In this document: piece after piece, positions 36,524 to 46,222 of the stretch | Numbering within the stretch: the first letter of the stretch is position 1 | Layout: the number at the start of each line of letters is the position of its first letter | DNA from: an uncultured Lacinutrix sp. | Lineage (GTDB): Bacteria > Bacteroidota > Bacteroidia > Flavobacteriales > Flavobacteriaceae | DNA length: 64,000 nucleotides | Assembly (NCBI RefSeq): GCF_947500325.1 | Contig: NZ_CANMRQ010000001.1 | Coordinates: forward strand, 1 to 64,000 | Direction of reading: 5' to 3' | Program-made: the position numbers and the translations under genes | The notes under the pieces: model-generated | Databases searched by the model: none | What the model saw: only the letters and a program-made list of their open reading frames with translations | Told to the model about the DNA's origin: nothing

Positions 36524-36568
36524 TTACACTACAAATATTATAGCGTATTGCGCAATGTTATTGCGCAG
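36524..36568 (-). promoter_or_regulatory. shared operator/promoter module (TGCGCAAT-N3-ATTGCGCA palindrome plus TATAATATTTG -7 box) upstream of rtcB
   Basis: read on the minus strand: CTGCGCAATAACATTGCGCAATACGCTATAATATTTGTAGTGTAA; recurs at 37528, 41866, 46177. Confidence 0.55.
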
Positions 36569-36573
36569 TTTTT

Positions 36574-37038
36574 TTATTTCAAAAGATTATACTCATTAGT
36601 TGGGAATTCATGTAAAACCCATTTTTCCTTATAAGCTTCTGGGTTCATTTTATTTAAAATTTTAATCAAAACTTCACGTACCTGATTAATATATTTAGCT
36701 ACGGTAGTTTTTCCTTCTAATTGTATTTGGTAATTATCAGTATTAATCATATTCCAACTATACCAATCTGGATACCATTTTAACTGATATATAATTAAAT
36801 TATCTTTTCGTGTTAATTCTAATATAAATTCCCCTGGCTCATCCATAAAGACAACCTTTGCATAATCCTTTGTTTGTATATTAATTGCTGATTCCGCTAG
36901 TTCTTTTAATGAATCATGTAAATAAGAAACCACAAAATCAATAGATTTTTCTAAATCACCAATTCTTCCTTTAGCCCAACCAGCATCTAATACATCGTAT
37001 TCAATAAAAAACATCTCTTTTATTTTTATAAAACCCAA
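36574..37038 (-). CDS. hypothetical protein
   Basis: 154 aa. Confidence 0.4.
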   Translation of the reverse strand: MGFIKIKEMFFIEYDVLDAGWAKGRIGDLEKSIDFVVSYLHDSLKELAESAINIQTKDYAKVVFMDEPGEFILELTRKDNLIIYQLKWYPDWYSWNMINTDNYQIQLEGKTTVAKYINQVREVLIKILNKMNPEAYKEKWVLHEFPTNEYNLLK

Positions 37039-37060
37039 AAGTTCTTTACTTGACTTGCAG

Positions 37061-37150
37061 GTTTTTCATTAATATACATCATAGCATCTTTCATCCATTT
37101 TCCTAGTCTATACTAGGGAGATTAAATCGTGTCCTGTTACTTTTGTTTTC
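37061..37150 (-). pseudogene. duplicated 5' fragment of rtcB ([14 protein letters not shown]-stop), about 85% identical to 36411-36510
   Basis: direct nucleotide comparison of the two segments; the copy carries an in-frame TAG. Confidence 0.6.
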
Positions 37151-37154
37151 ATTG

Positions 37155-37517
37155 TTATTTTACTTTAACATTTTCAACCTTAATTGCTACATAATCATAA
37201 GTATAGCATTCGTTTACTATAGTTGCTATCCCAATTTTGCAATTAGGACAAATTTGGTTTAAAAAATCAACTGGCTCATATCCACAACAACCAAAATAGT
37301 TTTTTATTAATTTGTGGTTTATTAGTTTCGAATCTCGCCAGTTTATTAATATTCTATCGTTATGAGAGATTGATACATCTTCATGTCCTTCACTCCAAAA
37401 TCCTCTTTCTATAATTTCTTCATCTTCTTCAAAAAGAGATAAGTCTAGTTTAATTTTCTTTAATTGATTTGTAAGAGATGCATCACAATTTTTACATGTT
37501 ATAATAATTTTTTCCAT
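37155..37517 (-). CDS. small Cys-rich hypothetical protein
   Basis: CKNC...CPNC pairs; 120 aa. Confidence 0.4.
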   Translation of the reverse strand: MEKIIITCKNCDASLTNQLKKIKLDLSLFEEDEEIIERGFWSEGHEDVSISHNDRILINWRDSKLINHKLIKNYFGCCGYEPVDFLNQICPNCKIGIATIVNECYTYDYVAIKVENVKVK

Positions 37518-37527
37518 TATTTCTTAA

Positions 37528-37572
37528 TTACACTACAAATATTATAGTGTATTGCGTAATCATTTTGCGTAG
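37528..37572 (-). promoter_or_regulatory. shared operator/promoter module (second copy)
   Basis: CTACGCAAAATGATTACGCAATACACTATAATATTTGTAGTGTAA on the minus strand. Confidence 0.55.
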
Positions 37573-37577
37573 ATAAT

Positions 37578-38360
37578 TTATTTTAAAGAAAAATAATTAT
37601 GTAAAGCTTTAAAAATGGATTTTACATTGGTATTTGGGTAGAACCCAGAACTGTTTATGCAATTAACTTCAACTATTTTCCATCCATTATTGGTTAAGCC
37701 TATATCCATAACAAAAGCATCAGCGATATTAAAAACAGCTATCATTTCTTTTGCAAAGGCAATGCCTTCAGGCGCTACATTTAATTCAAATAATACGTTT
37801 TCATTAAACTTATAATAACCAGCATCTACTATTTGTTTACCAACAATCCAAAGTCTAGCTTCCTTTAAAATTTCTTGTGGCTTTGAAATTTGGATAAGTG
37901 TATTTTTATTCAAATTTTCTGAAGCTTGACTTTCCAAAGCTTCGTATACATAATCAGACCAAGATGATTGATTAAAAACTTTACCCGTAAAAACCTTTGC
38001 ATCTCTATAAGGCTTAATAAATAGCTTAGAATTAGCTTTCCAATTAATCTTATCGGTCAATTTTAGAACTTGAAAATTATAATTAAGTGTATTACTCTTA
38101 TAGTGTTTAGAGTAAATTTCAAATAAGTGATTATTGCCATAAAATGAATTGGGCGACCAATCTTTATATTGTAGCGCCAAACGTGCTAATCGTACTGAAC
38201 CATAAACGAATATATCCTTACGGTTTGTTTTTAGTTCTAAATGTTTAGTTTCTTTTAGAACCTCAATAGTTTCATAAGGATAGTTTAACGTATCTAATGC
38301 TTCATATACTCTATCATGATCTGGATCTGAGTATATATTTGATTGAATTAAAAAATACAT
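37578..38360 (-). CDS. hypothetical protein, possible ATP-grasp-like C-terminal fold
   Basis: 260 aa; weak ATP-grasp-like C-terminal pattern (DIGLTNNGWKIVEVN). Confidence 0.35.
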   Translation of the reverse strand: MYFLIQSNIYSDPDHDRVYEALDTLNYPYETIEVLKETKHLELKTNRKDIFVYGSVRLARLALQYKDWSPNSFYGNNHLFEIYSKHYKSNTLNYNFQVLKLTDKINWKANSKLFIKPYRDAKVFTGKVFNQSSWSDYVYEALESQASENLNKNTLIQISKPQEILKEARLWIVGKQIVDAGYYKFNENVLFELNVAPEGIAFAKEMIAVFNIADAFVMDIGLTNNGWKIVEVNCINSSGFYPNTNVKSIFKALHNYFSLK

Positions 38361-38432
38361 GTTTTAAATATTAATTATTTTTAAATTAAGCCTACAAAAC
38401 TAATTTTGTAGGCTATTTAAAGAGGCTTCATT

Positions 38433-45148: not shown

Positions 45149-45159
45149 ATAATTTTTTG

Positions 45160-45246
45160 CGGAGAGCAAAGGAATCGAACCTTCACCGCCATAAAGCGGA
45201 CTTGTTTAGCAGACAAGCGCAACAAACCAGTATTTGCCTACTCTCC
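45160..45246 (-). tRNA. tRNA-Ser (GCT), type II
   Basis: anticodon arm CTTGT-CTGCTAA-ACAAG; long variable arm; G73. Confidence 0.65.
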
Positions 45247-45259
45247 ATTTATTTATATC

Positions 45260-45333
45260 GTCTAAGAGACAGGATTCGAACCTGCAACCTCTCGCTTCCA
45301 AAGCGAGTAAACTATCCATCGTTCTCCTCTTAG
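45260..45333 (-). tRNA. tRNA-Pro (TGG), C1-G72, A73
   Basis: acceptor CTAAGAG/CTCTTAG; anticodon arm CTCGC-TTTGGAA-GCGAG. Confidence 0.7.
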
Positions 45334-45338
45334 TTTTG

Positions 45339-45425
45339 CGGAAGGAGTGGGAATCGAACCCACACGAGTCGTTATCTCCGAACAGTTTTCAAAACTGTGG
45401 CCACCACCTATTGGCTTGCCCTTCC
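45339..45425 (-). tRNA. tRNA-Ser (TGA), type II
   Basis: anticodon arm ACAGT-TTTGAAA-ACTGT; long variable arm; G73. Confidence 0.65.
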
Positions 45426-45434
45426 ATTTTTTTG

Positions 45435-45508
45435 TTGACGTAGTGAGAGTCGAACTCACATAACCTCGATTAAAAGTCGAGTGCTTTAGCCAGTTAAGCT
45501 ACACGTCA
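45435..45508 (-). tRNA. tRNA-Lys (TTT)
   Basis: acceptor TGACGTG/TACGTCA; D GCTT/AAGC; anticodon arm CTCGA-CTTTTAA-TCGAG. Confidence 0.7.
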
Positions 45509-45794
45509 CTATTTTATTTCAATGAACACCATAAAAAAAGCACCTCATTTTTATGGAAGGTGCTTTCTTTAAATCTATAAATACATCAACTCATGTATCT
45601 ATAACCTTCCTATTATATTTTATAAATCTCTCATCACAACTAGATGCGACCATATTATGCTTCGGCGAGCGAAACCAGAGATTTTGTTTAATTATATGTT
45701 GTAAATAATTTTCCATTATTGTTTTATTTGTTTTTGACGATGCAAAGATGAAACGCTTTTTTGAATTACACAAGAAAAATTTCATTTTAATTTA

Positions 45795-45992
45795 CTGATA
45801 ATCAATTAATTATGTTGTTTTTAGGCAATAGAATTCCTGTCCGTTTTTTAACGGATATTCAACATGTTATACAATAGTCTGTCTCCCAATTGTTTTGCTG
45901 TTTCAATGCTCTATTTTAATCTTTTTACTGTTCTATAATCATTTCAAAAAAAATTAAAAAAAAACGTCCAACTTTTAGGTTGGACGCTTAAT
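45795..45992 (-). repeat. repeat block 1 (upstream of the tRNA array): conserved core TTTTAGGCAATAGAATTCCTG(T/C)CCG plus GCGTCCAAC hairpin/terminator
   Basis: shares an about 48-bp core and a terminal hairpin with 53262-53447. Confidence 0.5.
45955..45990 (-). terminator. rho-independent terminator for the minus-strand gene 46229-47176
   Basis: minus strand reads GCGTCCAACC-TAAAA-GTTGGACG followed by T-run. Confidence 0.6.
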
Positions 45993-46176
45993 ATTCTATT
46001 TTTATTAGAGTTTAAATCATAATCTACTCTTTAAAAAAGATACAAAACGTCCTTCTTGGGGATTCAGTAAAATAACTGCTCCTCTATAATCGCATTCACT
46101 AAAGCGCGATATTGCTTGTTTATGTATTTCTTGTTTTATCATAATTATTTCCCACGAAAGTGGGAATCTGTTTTAT

Positions 46177-46222
46177 TTACACTACAAATATAATTGCAGT
46201 AAGACGCAATCTTTTTACGTAG
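46177..46222 (-). promoter_or_regulatory. shared operator/promoter module (fourth copy)
   Basis: ACTACGTAAAAAGATTGCGTCTTACTGCAATTATATTTGTAGTGTAA on the minus strand. Confidence 0.5.

What the first reader, a model, noticed from the sequence alone, without database searches (positions are those of the whole stretch)
36524..46222. Conserved palindromic operator plus Bacteroidetes -7 box shared by four genes of the island
Four minus-strand genes carry the same module immediately upstream: rtcB (36524-36568), the Cys-rich small protein (37528-37572), Rnl2 (41866-41906) and the Ntn-hydrolase (46177-46222). The module is an inverted repeat ACGCAA-N5-TTGCGT (TGCGCAAT-AAC-ATTGCGCA in the rtcB copy). 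A TAtAATATTTG -7 element and the common TGTAGTGTAA leader follow it. This defines a small regulon controlled by an unknown dimeric DNA-binding protein, placing RNA ligation, and unexpectedly an amide hydrolase, under one signal.
Basis: seen in the sequence. Interest (0 to 1): 0.65.

Follow-up and report, generated by a model that had tools for sequence, protein, structure and literature searches.

The report
Shared operator-promoter of RNA-repair island
Five promoters of an RNA-repair gene island in a marine Lacinutrix genome carry the same 19-bp two-fold-symmetric protein-binding site exactly 13-14 bases upstream of the promoter's -7 box. The same arrangement recurs across the phylum Bacteroidota next to a WYL-domain regulator gene, so it marks a conserved RNA-repair/tRNA regulon that I could not find described, and that here also drives the enigmatic GOLLD RNA.

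Summary
The four repeated modules exist at the stated coordinates and are far beyond chance. Two gene assignments are wrong: Rnl2 and the Ntn-hydrolase END just upstream of their modules. Those two modules instead drive a structured leader plus GOLLD RNA, and a small ORF lying ahead of an 18-tRNA array.

The palindrome is better written TRCGCA-N7-TGCGYA. Two copies were missed: one upstream of a CCA-enzyme/RlaP operon (34511) and a weaker one 59 nt upstream of a divergent wHTH-WYL-WCX-PhyH regulator gene (54857-56578).

In 80 orthologous loci from across Bacteroidota, 119 dyads occur in 1.4 Mb, and 117 lie on the divergent side of the WYL gene. Across these plus the window's six sites (125), 93 have TTTG exactly 13 nt downstream. 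They drive RtcB, tRNA arrays, RlaP and Y-RNA-like RNAs.

The regulator models as a DriD/PafBC-type WYL activator. DriD's operator has the same 6-N7-6 geometry.

The '-7 box + TGTAGTGTAA leader' is generic Bacteroidetes promoter sequence. The dyad is the specific element.

Best reading: a WYL-regulator-dependent composite promoter defining an RNA-damage regulon. It is functionally analogous to the RtcR (enterobacteria) and TrcR (cyanobacteria) regulons. I rate it a new variant of a known kind, inferred entirely in silico.

The parts
34494..34529 (-). Dyad TACGCA-AAAAGAC-CGCGTA (34529-34511), then 13 nt, then TTTG (34497-34494). It lies upstream of the 231-aa ORF 34440-33745, followed by the CCA/polyA-polymerase+HD gene, two RlaP genes, an SDR gene and 4 tRNAs.
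   Evidence: PWM score 41.9 bits.
36532..36567 (-). Module S1. Dyad TGCGCA-ATAACAT-TGCGCA (36567-36549), then 13 nt, then TTTG (36535-36532). It lies upstream of rtcB-1 (36506-35106). The promoter and leader are orthologous to the RtcB promoters of other Flavobacteriaceae.
   Evidence: PWM score 42.9 bits.
37536..37571 (-). Module S2. Dyad TACGCA-AAATGAT-TACGCA (1 mismatch), then 13 nt, then TTTG. It lies upstream of the Cys-rich 120-aa ORF (37517-37155). It is a duplicate of S1.
   Evidence: PWM score 31.1 bits.
37063..37152 (-). Decayed copy of the first ~92 nt of rtcB, lying between the Cys-rich ORF and the 154-aa ORF. It is a relic of a second promoter-rtcB-p154 unit and shows that S1 and S2 arose by duplication.
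   Evidence: repeats D7 and D16, 88-93% identity. p154 homologues follow RtcB in L188, L206 and L209.
41876..41911 (-). Module S3. Perfect dyad TACGCA-AAAACAT-TGCGTA, then 13 nt, then TTTG. It starts 22 nt after the Rnl2 stop codon. It drives the leader, GOLLD, a tRNA-like element, p610 and the ATP-grasp gene.
   Evidence: PWM score 46.2 bits.
41786..41868 (-). Conserved 5' leader of the S3 transcript, with two hairpins. It is found directly after the orthologous promoter in 13 other Flavobacteriaceae loci, where tRNAs and then RtcB follow.
   Evidence: 7 of 17 pairs show compensatory changes.
40913..41390 (-). GOLLD RNA conserved 3' domain. The whole RNA probably spans about 41720-40700.
   Evidence: Rfam RF02032: 131.9 bits, E 1e-35, model positions 1-416 of 416, below the gathering score of 150. 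It is absent from all 80 orthologous loci.
46185..46221 (-). Module S4. Dyad TACGTA-AAAAGAT-TGCGTC (2 mismatches), then 14 nt, then TTTG. It starts 7 nt after the stop of the Ntn/AAT hydrolase gene. Downstream come a hairpin, a 41-aa ORF, an intrinsic terminator (45989-45962), a second promoter-like element and small ORF, and then the 18-tRNA array (45508-43778).
   Evidence: The whole unit, including the same deviant half-sites, is conserved in L177. PWM score 10.5 bits.
54798..54816 (+). Site S5. Dyad TACGCA-AATTATT-TACGTT (2 mismatches), 59 nt upstream of the WYL regulator's ATG, with no TTTG at +13 on either strand. It is probably an autoregulatory operator. Its position is orthologous to perfect dyads in relatives.
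   Evidence: the most common distance is 57-58 nt, seen in 63 of 80 loci.
54857..56578 (+). Candidate regulator. A 573-aa protein with wHTH (about residues 1-85), helical linker, WYL (154-220), WCX (255-327) and a PhyH-type Fe(II)/2OG dioxygenase domain (about 340-573, HxD...H triad conserved).
   Evidence: Pfam; AF2 model; Foldseek to full-length DriD and PafBC; profile search against PDB; 100% identical to 'WYL domain-containing protein [uncultured Lacinutrix sp.]'; conserved residues.
35106..36506 (-). rtcB-1, the RNA ligase gene and target of S1.
   Evidence: Pfam PF01139, E 4e-37.

Best explanation
The repeated module is a composite, regulator-dependent promoter. A 19-bp dyad (TRCGCA-AAAAGAY-TGCGYA) is the binding site of a dimeric winged-helix regulator. 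It sits 13 nt upstream of the TTTG of a Bacteroidetes sigma-A -7 box. Its centre is therefore near -32, where the -33 element would normally be.

The regulator is most probably the divergently encoded wHTH-WYL-WCX-PhyH protein (54857-56578). This is a DriD/PafBC-type WYL transcription factor.

On sensing a signal through its WYL domain, it activates the five island promoters. I infer that signal to be RNA-damage products such as cleaved tRNA or single-stranded RNA. The dioxygenase domain possibly modulates the response. The five targets are rtcB; a Cys-rich ORF; the leader-GOLLD-p610-ATP-grasp unit; the small ORF ahead of the tRNA array; and the CCA-enzyme/RlaP/tRNA operon. The regulator probably represses its own gene through the dyad 57-59 nt upstream of its ATG.

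What is shown in silico: the sites, their geometry, their conservation, their linkage to the WYL gene, and the fold of the regulator.
What is inferred: that this protein binds the dyad, the sign of regulation, the inducing signal, and the transcription start sites.

My sub-confidences:
- The dyad is a transcription-factor operator at regulated promoters: about 0.95.
- The WYL protein is that factor: about 0.85.
- It activates rather than represses the targets: about 0.65.
- The signal is RNA damage: about 0.5.
For: (1) Specificity in the window. There are six dyads at <=2 mismatches, all intergenic and inside the island, against 2.15 expected. At <=1 mismatch there are four, against 0.1 expected. 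A PWM from other genomes picks exactly S3, S1, S0, S2 and S4.

(2) Conservation. In 80 loci encoding orthologues of the WYL protein (43-87% identity, from Flavobacteriaceae to Cytophagales, Saprospiraceae and Bacteroidales) there are 119 dyads (<=1 mismatch) in 1.406 Mb. Of these, 117 lie on the divergent side of the WYL gene. A dyad lies within 400 nt of the WYL ATG in 63 of 80 loci, most often at 57-58 nt.

(3) Fixed phase. Of 125 dyads, 93 have TTTG starting exactly 13 nt after the dyad, always on the strand where the spacer reads A-rich. The position matrix shows the half-sites and the AAAAGA spacer are >=0.85-1.0 conserved.

(4) No -33 element is possible at the canonical distance, because those positions are the invariant A-tract. 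This argues for dependence on an activator.

(5) Targets. RtcB starts a median 24.5 nt after the predicted start site in 30 cases, and tRNAs follow in 24 cases. RtcB lies within 10 kb of the WYL gene in 51 of 80 loci. An independent metagenome scan gave >=120 loci, of which 64 hold a WYL homologue and 41 hold RtcB. In Chryseobacterium the same module precedes RtcB-p610, RlaP-R2K-kinase-Thg1, and a tRNA-like RNA + TROVE/Ro60, beside a 339-aa WYL-WCX gene.

(6) The regulator. Pfam finds WYL+WCX+PhyH. The AF2 model shows an N-terminal three-helix + beta-hairpin wHTH. The best PDB matches are full-length DriD bound to DNA (E 5e-13, about 340 columns), PafBC-RNAP and DriD-RNAP activation complexes. 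A sequence profile hits DriD at 1e-5.

(7) DriD is a homodimer that binds ATACGAC-N7-GTCGTAT with an AT-rich centre. It also binds its own promoter and activates transcription from just upstream of -35 (PMC10853764, PMC9186387). This is the same 6-N7-6 geometry, and the half-sites begin with the same TACG.

(8) The dyad is not a hairpin. The R/Y positions of the two halves do not covary: the non-complementary A..C combination occurs in 37 of 93 sites (Fisher p 0.06).
Against: - There is no experimental datum. Binding, start sites, induction and the sign of regulation are all inferred.
- Several WYL regulators (BrxR, CapW and relatives) are repressors. The functionally analogous cyanobacterial regulon is repressed, by TrcR.
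- A dyad centred at about -32 would also be well placed to occlude RNA polymerase.
- The window's own WYL-proximal site S5 is degenerate (2 mismatches).
- 17 of 80 orthologous loci show no dyad within 400 nt of the WYL gene.
- The first T of the TAnnTTTG box is not conserved.
- S4 has 14-nt spacing and two mismatches, and is followed by a strong terminator, so its control of the tRNA array is uncertain.
- The ortholog loci were collected through the WYL gene. Linkage to that gene is therefore partly built into that sample. The metagenome scan, which was motif-first, mitigates this but used short contigs.
Confidence: 0.72

Rival explanations
1. Same operator and same WYL protein, but acting as a repressor at the target promoters, in the manner of BrxR, CapW or TrcR. 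The dimer sits over the -33 region and blocks RNA polymerase. The signal releases it and the genes are derepressed.
For: The dyad spans about -41 to -23, overlapping where sigma region 4 would bind. WYL repressors of defence islands bind inverted repeats in their own promoters (PMC9122601, listed). The analogous tRNA-array + rtcB regulon of Anabaena is repressed by TrcR. The dyad 57-59 nt from the WYL ATG is best read as autorepression.
Against: Spacing fixed to the base pair in 93 of 125 sites across a phylum is what an RNAP-contacting activator requires, and a repressor does not need it. No TTG or TTTG can sit at the canonical -33 distance, so the promoters should be weak on their own. The closest structural relatives over the full wHTH-linker-WYL-WCX length are the activators DriD and PafBC, not the BrxR/CapW repressors.
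Confidence: 0.2
2. The dyad is bound by a different transcription factor encoded elsewhere in the genome. The WYL gene is merely another member or neighbour of the regulon.
For: Binding was not tested. 17 of 80 loci lack a dyad close to the WYL gene. In the metagenome sample 56 of 120 motif-bearing stretches show no WYL homologue, though many are short contigs.
Against: 117 of 119 dyads lie beside the WYL gene, at a preferred distance of 57-58 nt from its ATG. No other DNA-binding protein is conserved in these neighbourhoods. The 6-N7-6, AT-rich-centre geometry matches that of the structurally closest WYL factor, DriD. Linkage persists in Chryseobacterium with a PhyH-less WYL protein.
Confidence: 0.06
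3. The modules are only copies of one promoter spread by recent duplication or recombination (mobile promoter cassettes), or the palindrome is a hairpin acting as a terminator or RNA element for the upstream genes. On either reading there is no dedicated regulator.
For: S1 and S2 are clearly duplicates, with a decayed rtcB 5' fragment between them. On the plus strand the dyads score as terminator-like hairpins followed by T-runs. Two modules directly follow gene ends.
Against: S0, S1, S3 and S4 each have positional orthologues in other genera, with diverged flanks but a conserved dyad and spacing. The half-site sequence is invariant while the R/Y positions do not covary, and A..C mismatches occur in 40% of sites, so selection acts on sequence and not on pairing. 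No plus-strand genes converge on the sites. On the transcribed (minus) strand no T-run follows the hairpin.
Confidence: 0.02

Closest known systems
DriD of Caulobacter crescentus (WYL-domain activator of an SOS-independent DNA-damage regulon) and its DriD box
   Same: - Same domain order: wHTH, helical linker, WYL, WCX. Foldseek gives E 5e-13 over about 340 columns to full-length DriD, and the sequence profile gives E 1e-5.
- Same operator geometry: 6-bp half-sites starting TACG, a 7-bp AT-rich spacer, and a homodimer (ATACGAC-N7-GTCGTAT).
- A site in the regulator's own promoter (one search compared).
- A small multi-promoter stress regulon.
   Different: - Sequence identity is only about 15%.
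- The inner half-site bases differ (CA versus AC).
- The dyad here abuts the -7 box (3' end at about -23, replacing -33), whereas the DriD box ends at -36 at didA.
- The host sigma and promoter type are Bacteroidetes -33/-7.
- The regulon is RNA repair, tRNA and ncRNA rather than DNA-damage genes.
- Most members carry an extra C-terminal PhyH dioxygenase domain.
- The ligand is unknown, whereas DriD binds ssDNA.
PafBC / RecA-NDp promoters of actinobacteria ('sigma adaptation')
   Same: A WYL-WCX activator whose binding element replaces the upstream promoter hexamer at a fixed distance from the downstream element. There are structural hits to PafBC-RNAP complexes (9fnd, 7p5x).
   Different: PafBC is a heterodimer or fusion that binds a non-palindromic element and only binds together with RNAP. 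Here the site is a clear dyad, implying a symmetric homodimer.
RtcR-controlled rsr-yrlBA-rtcBA / rtcBA operons of Salmonella and E. coli
   Same: A dedicated nucleic-acid-sensing regulator encoded divergently from an RtcB RNA-repair operon. That operon can also contain Ro60 (TROVE) and tRNA-like Y RNAs. Here there are sub-threshold YrlA/Y-RNA hits and a TROVE gene behind the same module in relatives. The inducing signal there is damaged tRNA (PMC7790460, listed).
   Different: RtcR is a CARF-AAA+ sigma-54 enhancer-binding protein. No such protein or promoter type is present in this island. Here the regulator is a wHTH-WYL factor acting at sigma-A-type promoters, at several separate promoters rather than one operon.
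TrcR regulon of Anabaena sp. PCC 7120 (long tRNA array + rtcB, translational-stress response)
   Same: A long tRNA-gene array and rtcB share one promoter-embedded motif and one regulator. L-arrays are also reported in Bacteroidetes (PMC8421152, PMC10272220).
   Different: TrcR is a ribbon-helix-helix repressor. Its sites are direct repeats overlapping the -10 box and the start site. Here the motif is an inverted repeat upstream of the -7 box and the candidate factor is a WYL protein. The mechanisms are unrelated.
GOLLD RNA loci in phages, prophages and mycobacterial tRNA arrays
   Same: A GOLLD RNA next to tRNA genes, with a tRNA-like element in or beside it (PMC12286853, PMC6582537).
   Different: Here GOLLD sits in a chromosomal RNA-repair island of a flavobacterium, behind an operator shared with rtcB. 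No regulator or co-regulated genes have been reported for GOLLD in the papers I could read, and the search 'GOLLD' + 'RtcB' found none.

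Membership tests
WYL-domain transcription factors of the DriD/PafBC type (candidate regulator, 54857-56578) | [quoted passage not shown] | tested here: met
   The AF2 model shows H5-19, H27-42, H50-61, E71-74 and E78-81, with pLDDT mostly 75-90. Foldseek alignments to full-length DriD and PafB cover about 340 columns including the N-terminus. Pfam itself reports no HTH family.
WYL-domain transcription factors of the DriD/PafBC type | WYL domain followed by the WCX dimerisation domain | tested here: met
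   PF13280 WYL, E 1.7e-11 (residues 154-220). PF25583 WCX, E 2e-7 (residues 255-327). Profile hits to the DriD C-domain and PafB.
WYL-domain transcription factors of the DriD/PafBC type | Binds a specific operator as a dimer, with a site in its own promoter | tested here: inconclusive
   A conserved dyad lies 57-58 nt upstream of the gene in most of 63/80 loci and has DriD-like 6-N7-6 geometry. Binding itself cannot be tested with these tools.
WYL-domain transcription factors of the DriD/PafBC type | Activity switched by a nucleic-acid ligand bound to the WYL domain | not testable with these tools
   Inference only, from DriD and PafBC (ssDNA) and from the RNA-centred regulon.
Bacteroidetes sigma-A promoter (-33 TTTG / -7 TAnnTTTG) | -7 box TAnnTTTG a few nt upstream of the transcript start | tested here: inconclusive
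   TTTG lies at a fixed position in 93 of 125 sites, with A at the second box position in 78%, but the first T is not conserved. RtcB ATGs follow at a median of about 24 nt. Start sites are not mapped.
Bacteroidetes sigma-A promoter (-33 TTTG / -7 TAnnTTTG) | -33 TTTG/TTG element about 19 bp upstream of the -7 box (the spacing figure is from my own knowledge of Bacteroides and Flavobacterium promoter studies) | tested here: not met
   The corresponding positions are the invariant A-tract of the dyad spacer (A 0.91-0.99). The only TTG, inside the proximal half-site, is 13 nt from the box. So this is a non-canonical, presumably factor-dependent promoter.
GOLLD RNA (Rfam RF02032) | Score at or above the family's gathering threshold (150 bits) | tested here: not met
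   131.9 bits, E 1.3e-35, full model 1-416, conserved motifs and pseudoknot aligned. I treat it as a divergent GOLLD rather than a curated-threshold member.
GOLLD RNA (Rfam RF02032) | Neighbourhood of tRNA genes, with a tRNA-like element in the linker or flank | tested here: met
   A T-arm-like AGGTTCGATTCCTAG lies in the linker. A tRNA-like element follows at 40676-40564. The 18-tRNA array lies 2.4 kb upstream.
RtcR (CARF-AAA+, sigma-54) Rtc regulon | CARF-AAA+ enhancer-binding regulator and a sigma-54 (-24/-12) promoter upstream of rtcB | tested here: not met
   None of the island ORFs scanned has a Sigma54_activat or CARF hit. The rtcB upstream region carries the dyad and the -7 box instead.
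TrcR (RHH repressor) tRNA-array/rtcB regulon | Direct 8-9-nt repeats overlapping the -10 box and the start site | tested here: not met
   The motif here is an inverted repeat ending 13 nt upstream of the -7 TTTG (compared).

The most novel reading that the evidence does not exclude
The wHTH-WYL-WCX-PhyH protein is a phylum-wide sensor of RNA damage, for example cleaved tRNA or rRNA ends or single-stranded RNA, perhaps read out or modified by its intact dioxygenase domain. It switches on, through one composite promoter, a complete 'translation-apparatus rescue kit': RtcB, RlaP, CCA-adding enzyme, Thg1, Ro60 with Y-like RNAs, and spare tRNA arrays. In this Lacinutrix the kit also includes GOLLD RNA. 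GOLLD would then be the first large 'ornate' RNA tied to a defined regulator and physiological response, and its function would become testable as part of RNA-damage or anti-nuclease defence.
Probability: 0.35. Interest if true: 0.82.

Novelty: new variant of a known kind. Interest (0 to 1): 0.66.

Why it matters
Bacteria are known to induce RNA repair through two unrelated sensors: RtcR in enterobacteria and TrcR in cyanobacteria. This finding points to a third solution, apparently undescribed, used across Bacteroidota: a WYL-domain factor, usually fused to a dioxygenase, with a sharply defined operator-promoter.

It would supply three things.
- A ready-made motif for predicting the RNA-repair/tRNA-array regulon in thousands of Bacteroidota genomes, gut Bacteroidales included.
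- A candidate case of a WYL domain sensing RNA damage rather than DNA damage.
- A concrete experimental handle on GOLLD RNA, on long tRNA arrays and on several conserved unknowns, such as the 610-aa protein that is 67-91% identical from Lacinutrix to Chryseobacterium. All of these sit behind the same switch.

In the full-text library available to me, no listed paper holding both 'WYL' and 'RtcB' describes such a regulator, and no paper links GOLLD with RtcB. An older comparative-genomics paper (Burroughs & Aravind 2016, NAR 44:8525) may already note WYL genes near RNA-repair operons. I could not open it.

Tried and rejected
1. Phage origin. My first guess from the tRNA array, Rnl2 and GOLLD was a large phage. 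Megablast of 35000-47200 against 50,697 phage records gave nothing. The flanks encode T9SS-sorted proteins, prolyl oligopeptidase and an ABC transporter. The regulator is 100% identical to a Lacinutrix MAG protein on a 604-kb contig. It is a chromosomal island.

2. Finding relatives through the 15-mer ATATTTGTAGTGTAA in IMG/VR. This gave >=120 hits, none with the dyad. It showed that this part is generic promoter sequence.

3. Finding relatives through RtcB in IMG/VR. The 41 phage loci (44-65% identity) have no module upstream of rtcB. The module is therefore tied to the bacterial WYL context, not to RtcB as such.

5. The dyad-N13-TTTG pattern in IMG/VR was mostly chance, plus an unrelated TACACCTT-TGCGCA family. 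Only a handful of hits were genuine, and these were probably mis-binned bacterial DNA.

6. GOLLD as a conserved regulon member. nhmmer found no GOLLD core in any of the 80 orthologous loci, so its membership is specific to this genome.

7. A 'sixth' site at about 53490-53505 (ACGCAA-AA-TTGCGC) has the wrong spacing and scores nothing with the PWM. I dropped it.

8. Function of the 610-aa protein. There is no Pfam or NCBIfam hit. The AF2 model has pLDDT 58.8, too poor for a fold search.

9. Burroughs & Aravind 2016 could not be retrieved by PMC id or DOI.

Full report
1. THE OBSERVATION

- S1: ctGCGCAATAACATTGCGCAatacgctataATATTTGTAGTGTAAttaagaaa... then the ATG of rtcB.
- S2: ctACGCAAAATGATTACGCAatacactataATATTTGTAGTGTAAttaagaaata, then the ATG of a Cys-rich 120-aa ORF.
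- S3: ctACGCAAAAACATTGCGTAatagtgtaaaATATTTGCAGAGTAAttaa.
- S4: ctACGTAAAAAGATTGCGTCttactgcaattATATTTGTAGTGTAAat.

The 15-mer core is exact three times and has 2 mismatches once. The palindrome pattern has 8 hits at <=2 mismatches against 1.6 expected, and none of 100 shuffles reaches 8. So the repeat is real.

Two gene assignments are wrong. Rnl2 (PF09414 + PF18043) is the minus-strand ORF 42929->41934. The Ntn/AAT hydrolase (PF03417) is 47176->46229. Both genes stop just before the modules (22 and 7 nt). The modules therefore lie downstream of them and face other targets.

2. WHAT THE MODULES FACE

S3 is followed by about 1.6 kb without any ORF. That stretch holds three things:
- an 83-nt leader with two hairpins;
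- a GOLLD RNA (Rfam RF02032, 131.9 bits, E 1e-35, full model; below the curated 150-bit threshold);
- a tRNA-like element with a 51-nt anticodon-region insertion.
After these come a 610-aa protein of unknown family and an R2K ATP-grasp protein.

S4 is followed, in order, by a hairpin, a 41-aa ORF, the only strong minus-strand intrinsic terminator of the region (45989-45962), a second promoter-like repeat with another small ORF, and then 18 tRNA genes.

S1 faces rtcB (PF01139). S2 faces the Cys-rich ORF, which is followed by a decayed 92-nt copy of the rtcB 5' end and a 154-aa ORF. Homologues of that 154-aa ORF normally follow RtcB in Cytophagales. S1 and S2 are therefore the promoters of a tandemly duplicated promoter-rtcB-p154 unit, one copy of which has decayed. 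They are not independent occurrences.

3. REDEFINING THE MOTIF AND COMPLETING THE SET

Comparison with relatives (section 5) shows the dyad is TRCGCA-N7-TGCGYA. Scanning the window with that consensus finds six sites at <=2 mismatches. Mononucleotide shuffles give 2.15. At <=1 mismatch there are four sites against 0.1 expected.

The two new sites are these.
- S0 at 34511-34529, with the same 13-nt distance to ATTTG. It lies upstream of a 231-aa ORF, followed by a CCA/poly(A)-polymerase+HD enzyme, two RlaP nucleotidyltransferases, an SDR protein and four tRNAs.
- S5 at 54798-54816, 59 nt upstream of a plus-strand gene encoding a WYL-WCX-PhyH protein.

A weight matrix built only from 89 sites in other genomes ranks S3, S1, S0, S2 and S4 as the five best positions of the 64-kb window: 46.2, 42.9, 41.9, 31.1 and 10.5 bits. 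The sixth-best position scores -8.9 and the best of 20 shuffles scores 3.6.

4. CONTEXT

The window is chromosomal DNA of an uncultured Lacinutrix (Flavobacteriaceae). The regulator is 100% identical to an NCBI protein of that name on a 604-kb contig. The flanks encode T9SS-sorted proteins and housekeeping enzymes.

Between about 26.8 and 54.7 kb lies a minus-strand island devoted to RNA. It holds two RtcB ligases, PrfH, Rnl2, two RlaP, a CCA-type enzyme, RNase T-like and RNase H-like proteins, an ATP-grasp R2K protein, 22 tRNAs and GOLLD.

My first idea, a large phage, was rejected.

5. CONSERVATION

A scan of one genome per species for relatives of the WYL protein returned 80 loci, from Flavobacteriaceae (77-87% identity) to Cytophagales, Saprospiraceae, Cryomorphaceae and Bacteroidales (43-60%). 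Upstream of nearly all of them sits the same dyad, for example cTGCGCAGTCTTTTTGCGCAg.

Counting all dyads with <=1 mismatch in these 1.406 Mb gives 119. Of these, 117 lie on the divergent side of the WYL gene. RtcB is within 10 kb in 51 of 80 loci.

Of 125 dyads (orthologues plus window), 93 have TTTG beginning exactly 13 nt after the dyad. This is always on the strand on which the spacer reads AAAAGAY. The matrix shows near-invariant half-sites and an A-tract spacer.

Downstream of these predicted promoters come RtcB (30 cases, median 24.5 nt to the ATG), tRNA genes or arrays of up to 17 tRNAs (24 cases, median 85 nt), and unannotated RNAs or ORFs. In Cytophagales the transcripts include sub-threshold YrlA / Y-RNA-like hits.

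Of those stretches, 64 held a WYL homologue and 41 held RtcB, and 32 promoters faced RtcB directly.

In Chryseobacterium, a different family, the same dyad-N13-TTTG precedes three units: RtcB plus the 610-aa protein; RlaP, R2K ATP-grasp, a kinase and Thg1; and a tRNA-like RNA plus a TROVE (Ro60) protein. These lie beside a 339-aa WYL-WCX gene without the dioxygenase domain.

S1, S3 and S4 have positional orthologues whose flanks have diverged while the module is kept. The S3 leader's two hairpins show compensatory changes at 7 of 17 pairs.

By contrast, the '-7 box + TAGTGTAA' 15-mer is found at >=120 unrelated Bacteroidetes-phage promoters that have an ordinary upstream TTTG instead of the dyad. 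Phage RtcB genes lack the module.

The GOLLD core has no counterpart in any of the 80 loci. In relatives the S3-type promoter and leader are followed by tRNAs and RtcB, or by the GTTCCTATAA-repeat region and the 610-aa gene. GOLLD therefore looks like an insertion into a conserved transcription unit.

6. THE REGULATOR

Pfam finds WYL, WCX and PhyH domains. All of the best 120 of >7,900 homologues carry WYL, and nearly all also WCX and PhyH. They are annotated only as 'WYL domain-containing protein' or 'YafY'.

An AlphaFold model (mean pLDDT 78.9) shows an N-terminal three-helix + beta-hairpin winged helix. Its best PDB matches are full-length DriD bound to ssDNA and operator DNA (E 5e-13), PafBC on RNA polymerase, and the DriD-RNAP activation complexes. 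The C-terminal part matches Fe(II)/2OG dioxygenases. A sequence profile also reaches DriD (1e-5), PafB (5e-4) and human PhyH. The HxD...H iron triad and the RR motif are invariant in 30 homologues.

DriD is a homodimeric activator whose operator is ATACGAC-N7-GTCGTAT with an AT-rich centre. It also binds its own promoter (PMC10853764, PMC9186387). The dyad here, TACGCA-N7-TGCGTA, has the same 6-N7-6 architecture and the same outer TACG.

The two half-sites' R/Y positions do not covary: the A..C combination occurs in 37 of 93 sites. Selection therefore acts on the sequence of each half-site and not on hairpin formation. This disposes of the terminator or RNA-hairpin reading suggested by the plus-strand scan.

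7. MECHANISM

If the TTTG belongs to the Bacteroidetes -7 box (TAnnTTTG), the dyad spans roughly -41 to -23. The spacing figure of about 19 bp between the -33 TTTG and the -7 box is from my own knowledge of the promoter studies in Bacteroides fragilis and Flavobacterium johnsoniae. The positions where a -33 TTG should lie are the invariant A-tract, so these promoters have no -33 element.

Three things point to activation:
- phasing fixed to the base pair over a whole phylum;
- a missing upstream promoter element;
- closest relatives that are activators working next to sigma region 4.
I put activation at about 0.65.

Repression (BrxR/CapW/TrcR-like) remains a serious alternative, because the site would equally occlude the polymerase.

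At its own gene the dyad lies 57-59 nt before the ATG and faces away in most lineages. That arrangement is typical of negative autoregulation combined with divergent activation.

The inducing signal is not addressed by any computation. I infer RNA damage from three points: the regulon's content, the precedent of RtcR sensing damaged tRNA, and the co-regulation of a tRNA array with rtcB under translational stress in Anabaena.

8. COMPARISON AND NOVELTY

The regulator appears to work like DriD/PafBC. It passes the testable membership criteria of that WYL family (wHTH, WYL, WCX, a site at its own gene). Its ligand and DNA binding are untested.

The regulon does the job of the RtcR and TrcR regulons but is a member of neither. 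There is no CARF-AAA+/sigma-54 component, no RHH protein, and no direct repeats over the -10 box.

Searches of the held literature gave the following:
- 'WYL' + 'RtcB' found no listed paper describing such a regulator.
- 'WYL' + 'PrfH' found nothing relevant.
- 'GOLLD' + 'RtcB' found zero papers.
- Papers on GOLLD state that its function is unknown.
Burroughs & Aravind (2016) may have noted WYL genes beside RNA-repair operons. A later paper from that group cites it for WYL domains and cyclic RNA ends, but I could not read it.

I therefore rate this as a new variant of a known kind. It is a WYL-family regulon with a newly defined operator-promoter, dedicated to RNA repair, tRNA arrays and ncRNAs, and in this genome it captures GOLLD.

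9. VERDICT

- Observation: partly confirmed.
- Interpretation: partly supported. The regulon and the dimeric factor hold. Rnl2 and the amide hydrolase as members do not, and the leader is not a specific signal.
- Confidence in the best explanation as a whole: 0.72.
- Interest: 0.66.

Noticed in passing
window 40913-41390 (-), probably about 41720-40700: A GOLLD RNA in a chromosomal flavobacterial RNA-repair island: 131.9 bits, E 1e-35, below Rfam's 150-bit threshold. It lies between a conserved leader and a tRNA-like element. It is absent from all 80 orthologous loci, so it is probably an insertion.
   Followed up: partly
window 40300-40680 (-): A tRNA-like gene (40676-40564) has good acceptor, D and T arms but 51 nt where the 11-nt anticodon region is expected. 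The insert carries GTTCCTGTATAG. Four more GTTCCTAT(AA) copies follow at about 40537, 40487, 40407 and 40327, spaced 50-80 nt apart, upstream of the 610-aa gene. The region is conserved in L242 and L167 (nhmmer E 5e-41). Function unknown. It could be a set of processing sites or a protein-spliced tRNA.
   Followed up: partly
window 41786-41868 (-); L168, L169, L170, L171, L173-L176, L228, L242, L167, L166, L210: A conserved 5' leader with two hairpins lies directly after the S3-type promoter. Compensatory changes occur at 7 of 17 pairs. In relatives it is followed by tRNAs and RtcB. It matches no Rfam family.
   Followed up: partly
window 45530-46185 (-) and L177 860-1530: Between S4 and the tRNA array lies a conserved cascade: a 41-aa ORF (82% identical in a Bizionia MAG), a strong terminator, a CAGGAATTCTATTGCCTAAAA element with its own -7-like box, a second small ORF, and a second hairpin + T-run. 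It looks like a leader/attenuator system for the tRNA array.
   Followed up: partly
window 45758-45858 and 53231-53331 (-): A 101-nt direct repeat (76% identity) that includes CAGGAATTCTATTGCCTAAAA and a -7-like box, each preceded by a similar terminator (AGCGTCCAA...TTGGACGC). It is a second repeated regulatory element, unrelated to the dyad.
   Followed up: no
window 46149-46166 and 43860-43879: The hairpin GATTCCCAYTTTCRTGGGAA occurs twice: once at the 5' end of the S4 transcript and once between tRNA-Ile and tRNA-His near the end of the array.
   Followed up: no
window 38433-40265 (-): A 610-aa protein with no Pfam or NCBIfam hit, yet 67-91% identical from Lacinutrix to Chryseobacterium. 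It is always next to RtcB and behind the dyad promoter. The AF2 model was too poor (pLDDT 58.8) to search by fold.
   Followed up: partly
window 48712-52806 (-): A second RNA-repair operon (PcfJ-like, RtcB-2, nucleotidyltransferase, PrfH, TPR, RNase T-like, Ntn hydrolase) has no dyad in this window. In relative L179 a dyad-type promoter next to the WYL gene faces a similar operon, and L177 carries a dyad about 1.2 kb upstream of one.
   Followed up: partly
L487 17424-19088; L486/L487 6594-16622: The Chryseobacterium island has the same module in front of a tRNA-like RNA + TROVE (Ro60) gene and in front of RlaP, R2K, AAA_33 kinase and Thg1. Its WYL regulator lacks the PhyH domain. This parallels the Salmonella rsr-Y RNA-rtcBA operon.
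   Followed up: partly
L188 9297-9461, L207 7593-7659, L212 5023-5090, L217 1890-2320: Sub-threshold YrlA / Deinococcus Y-RNA-like hits (30-42 bits) lie in the transcripts that start at the WYL-proximal divergent promoter of Cytophagales. An adjacent, upstream stretch of the same transcripts is homologous to window 40896-40666.
   Followed up: no
L247, L248, L250, L251, L260, L268 and 19 other IMG/VR loci: A different family has the same geometry: TACACCTT-TGCGCA-TTnnAAA-TGCGCA-N13-TTTG followed by a hairpin + T-run. It accounts for 25 of the 120 IMG/VR hits. No WYL or RtcB homologue lies nearby. It is possibly the operator-promoter of a paralogous regulator.
   Followed up: partly
window 56100-56578 (protein residues about 430-573): The regulator's PhyH-type dioxygenase domain keeps the HxD...H iron triad (H439, D441, H538) and R549/R550 in all 30 aligned homologues. 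The domain is therefore probably catalytically active, which is unusual for a transcription factor.
   Followed up: partly
window 28143-28468 (-): A four-tRNA cluster at the end of the S0 operon includes a tRNA called Cys with the unusual anticodon ACA, next to a normal tRNA-Cys(GCA).
   Followed up: no
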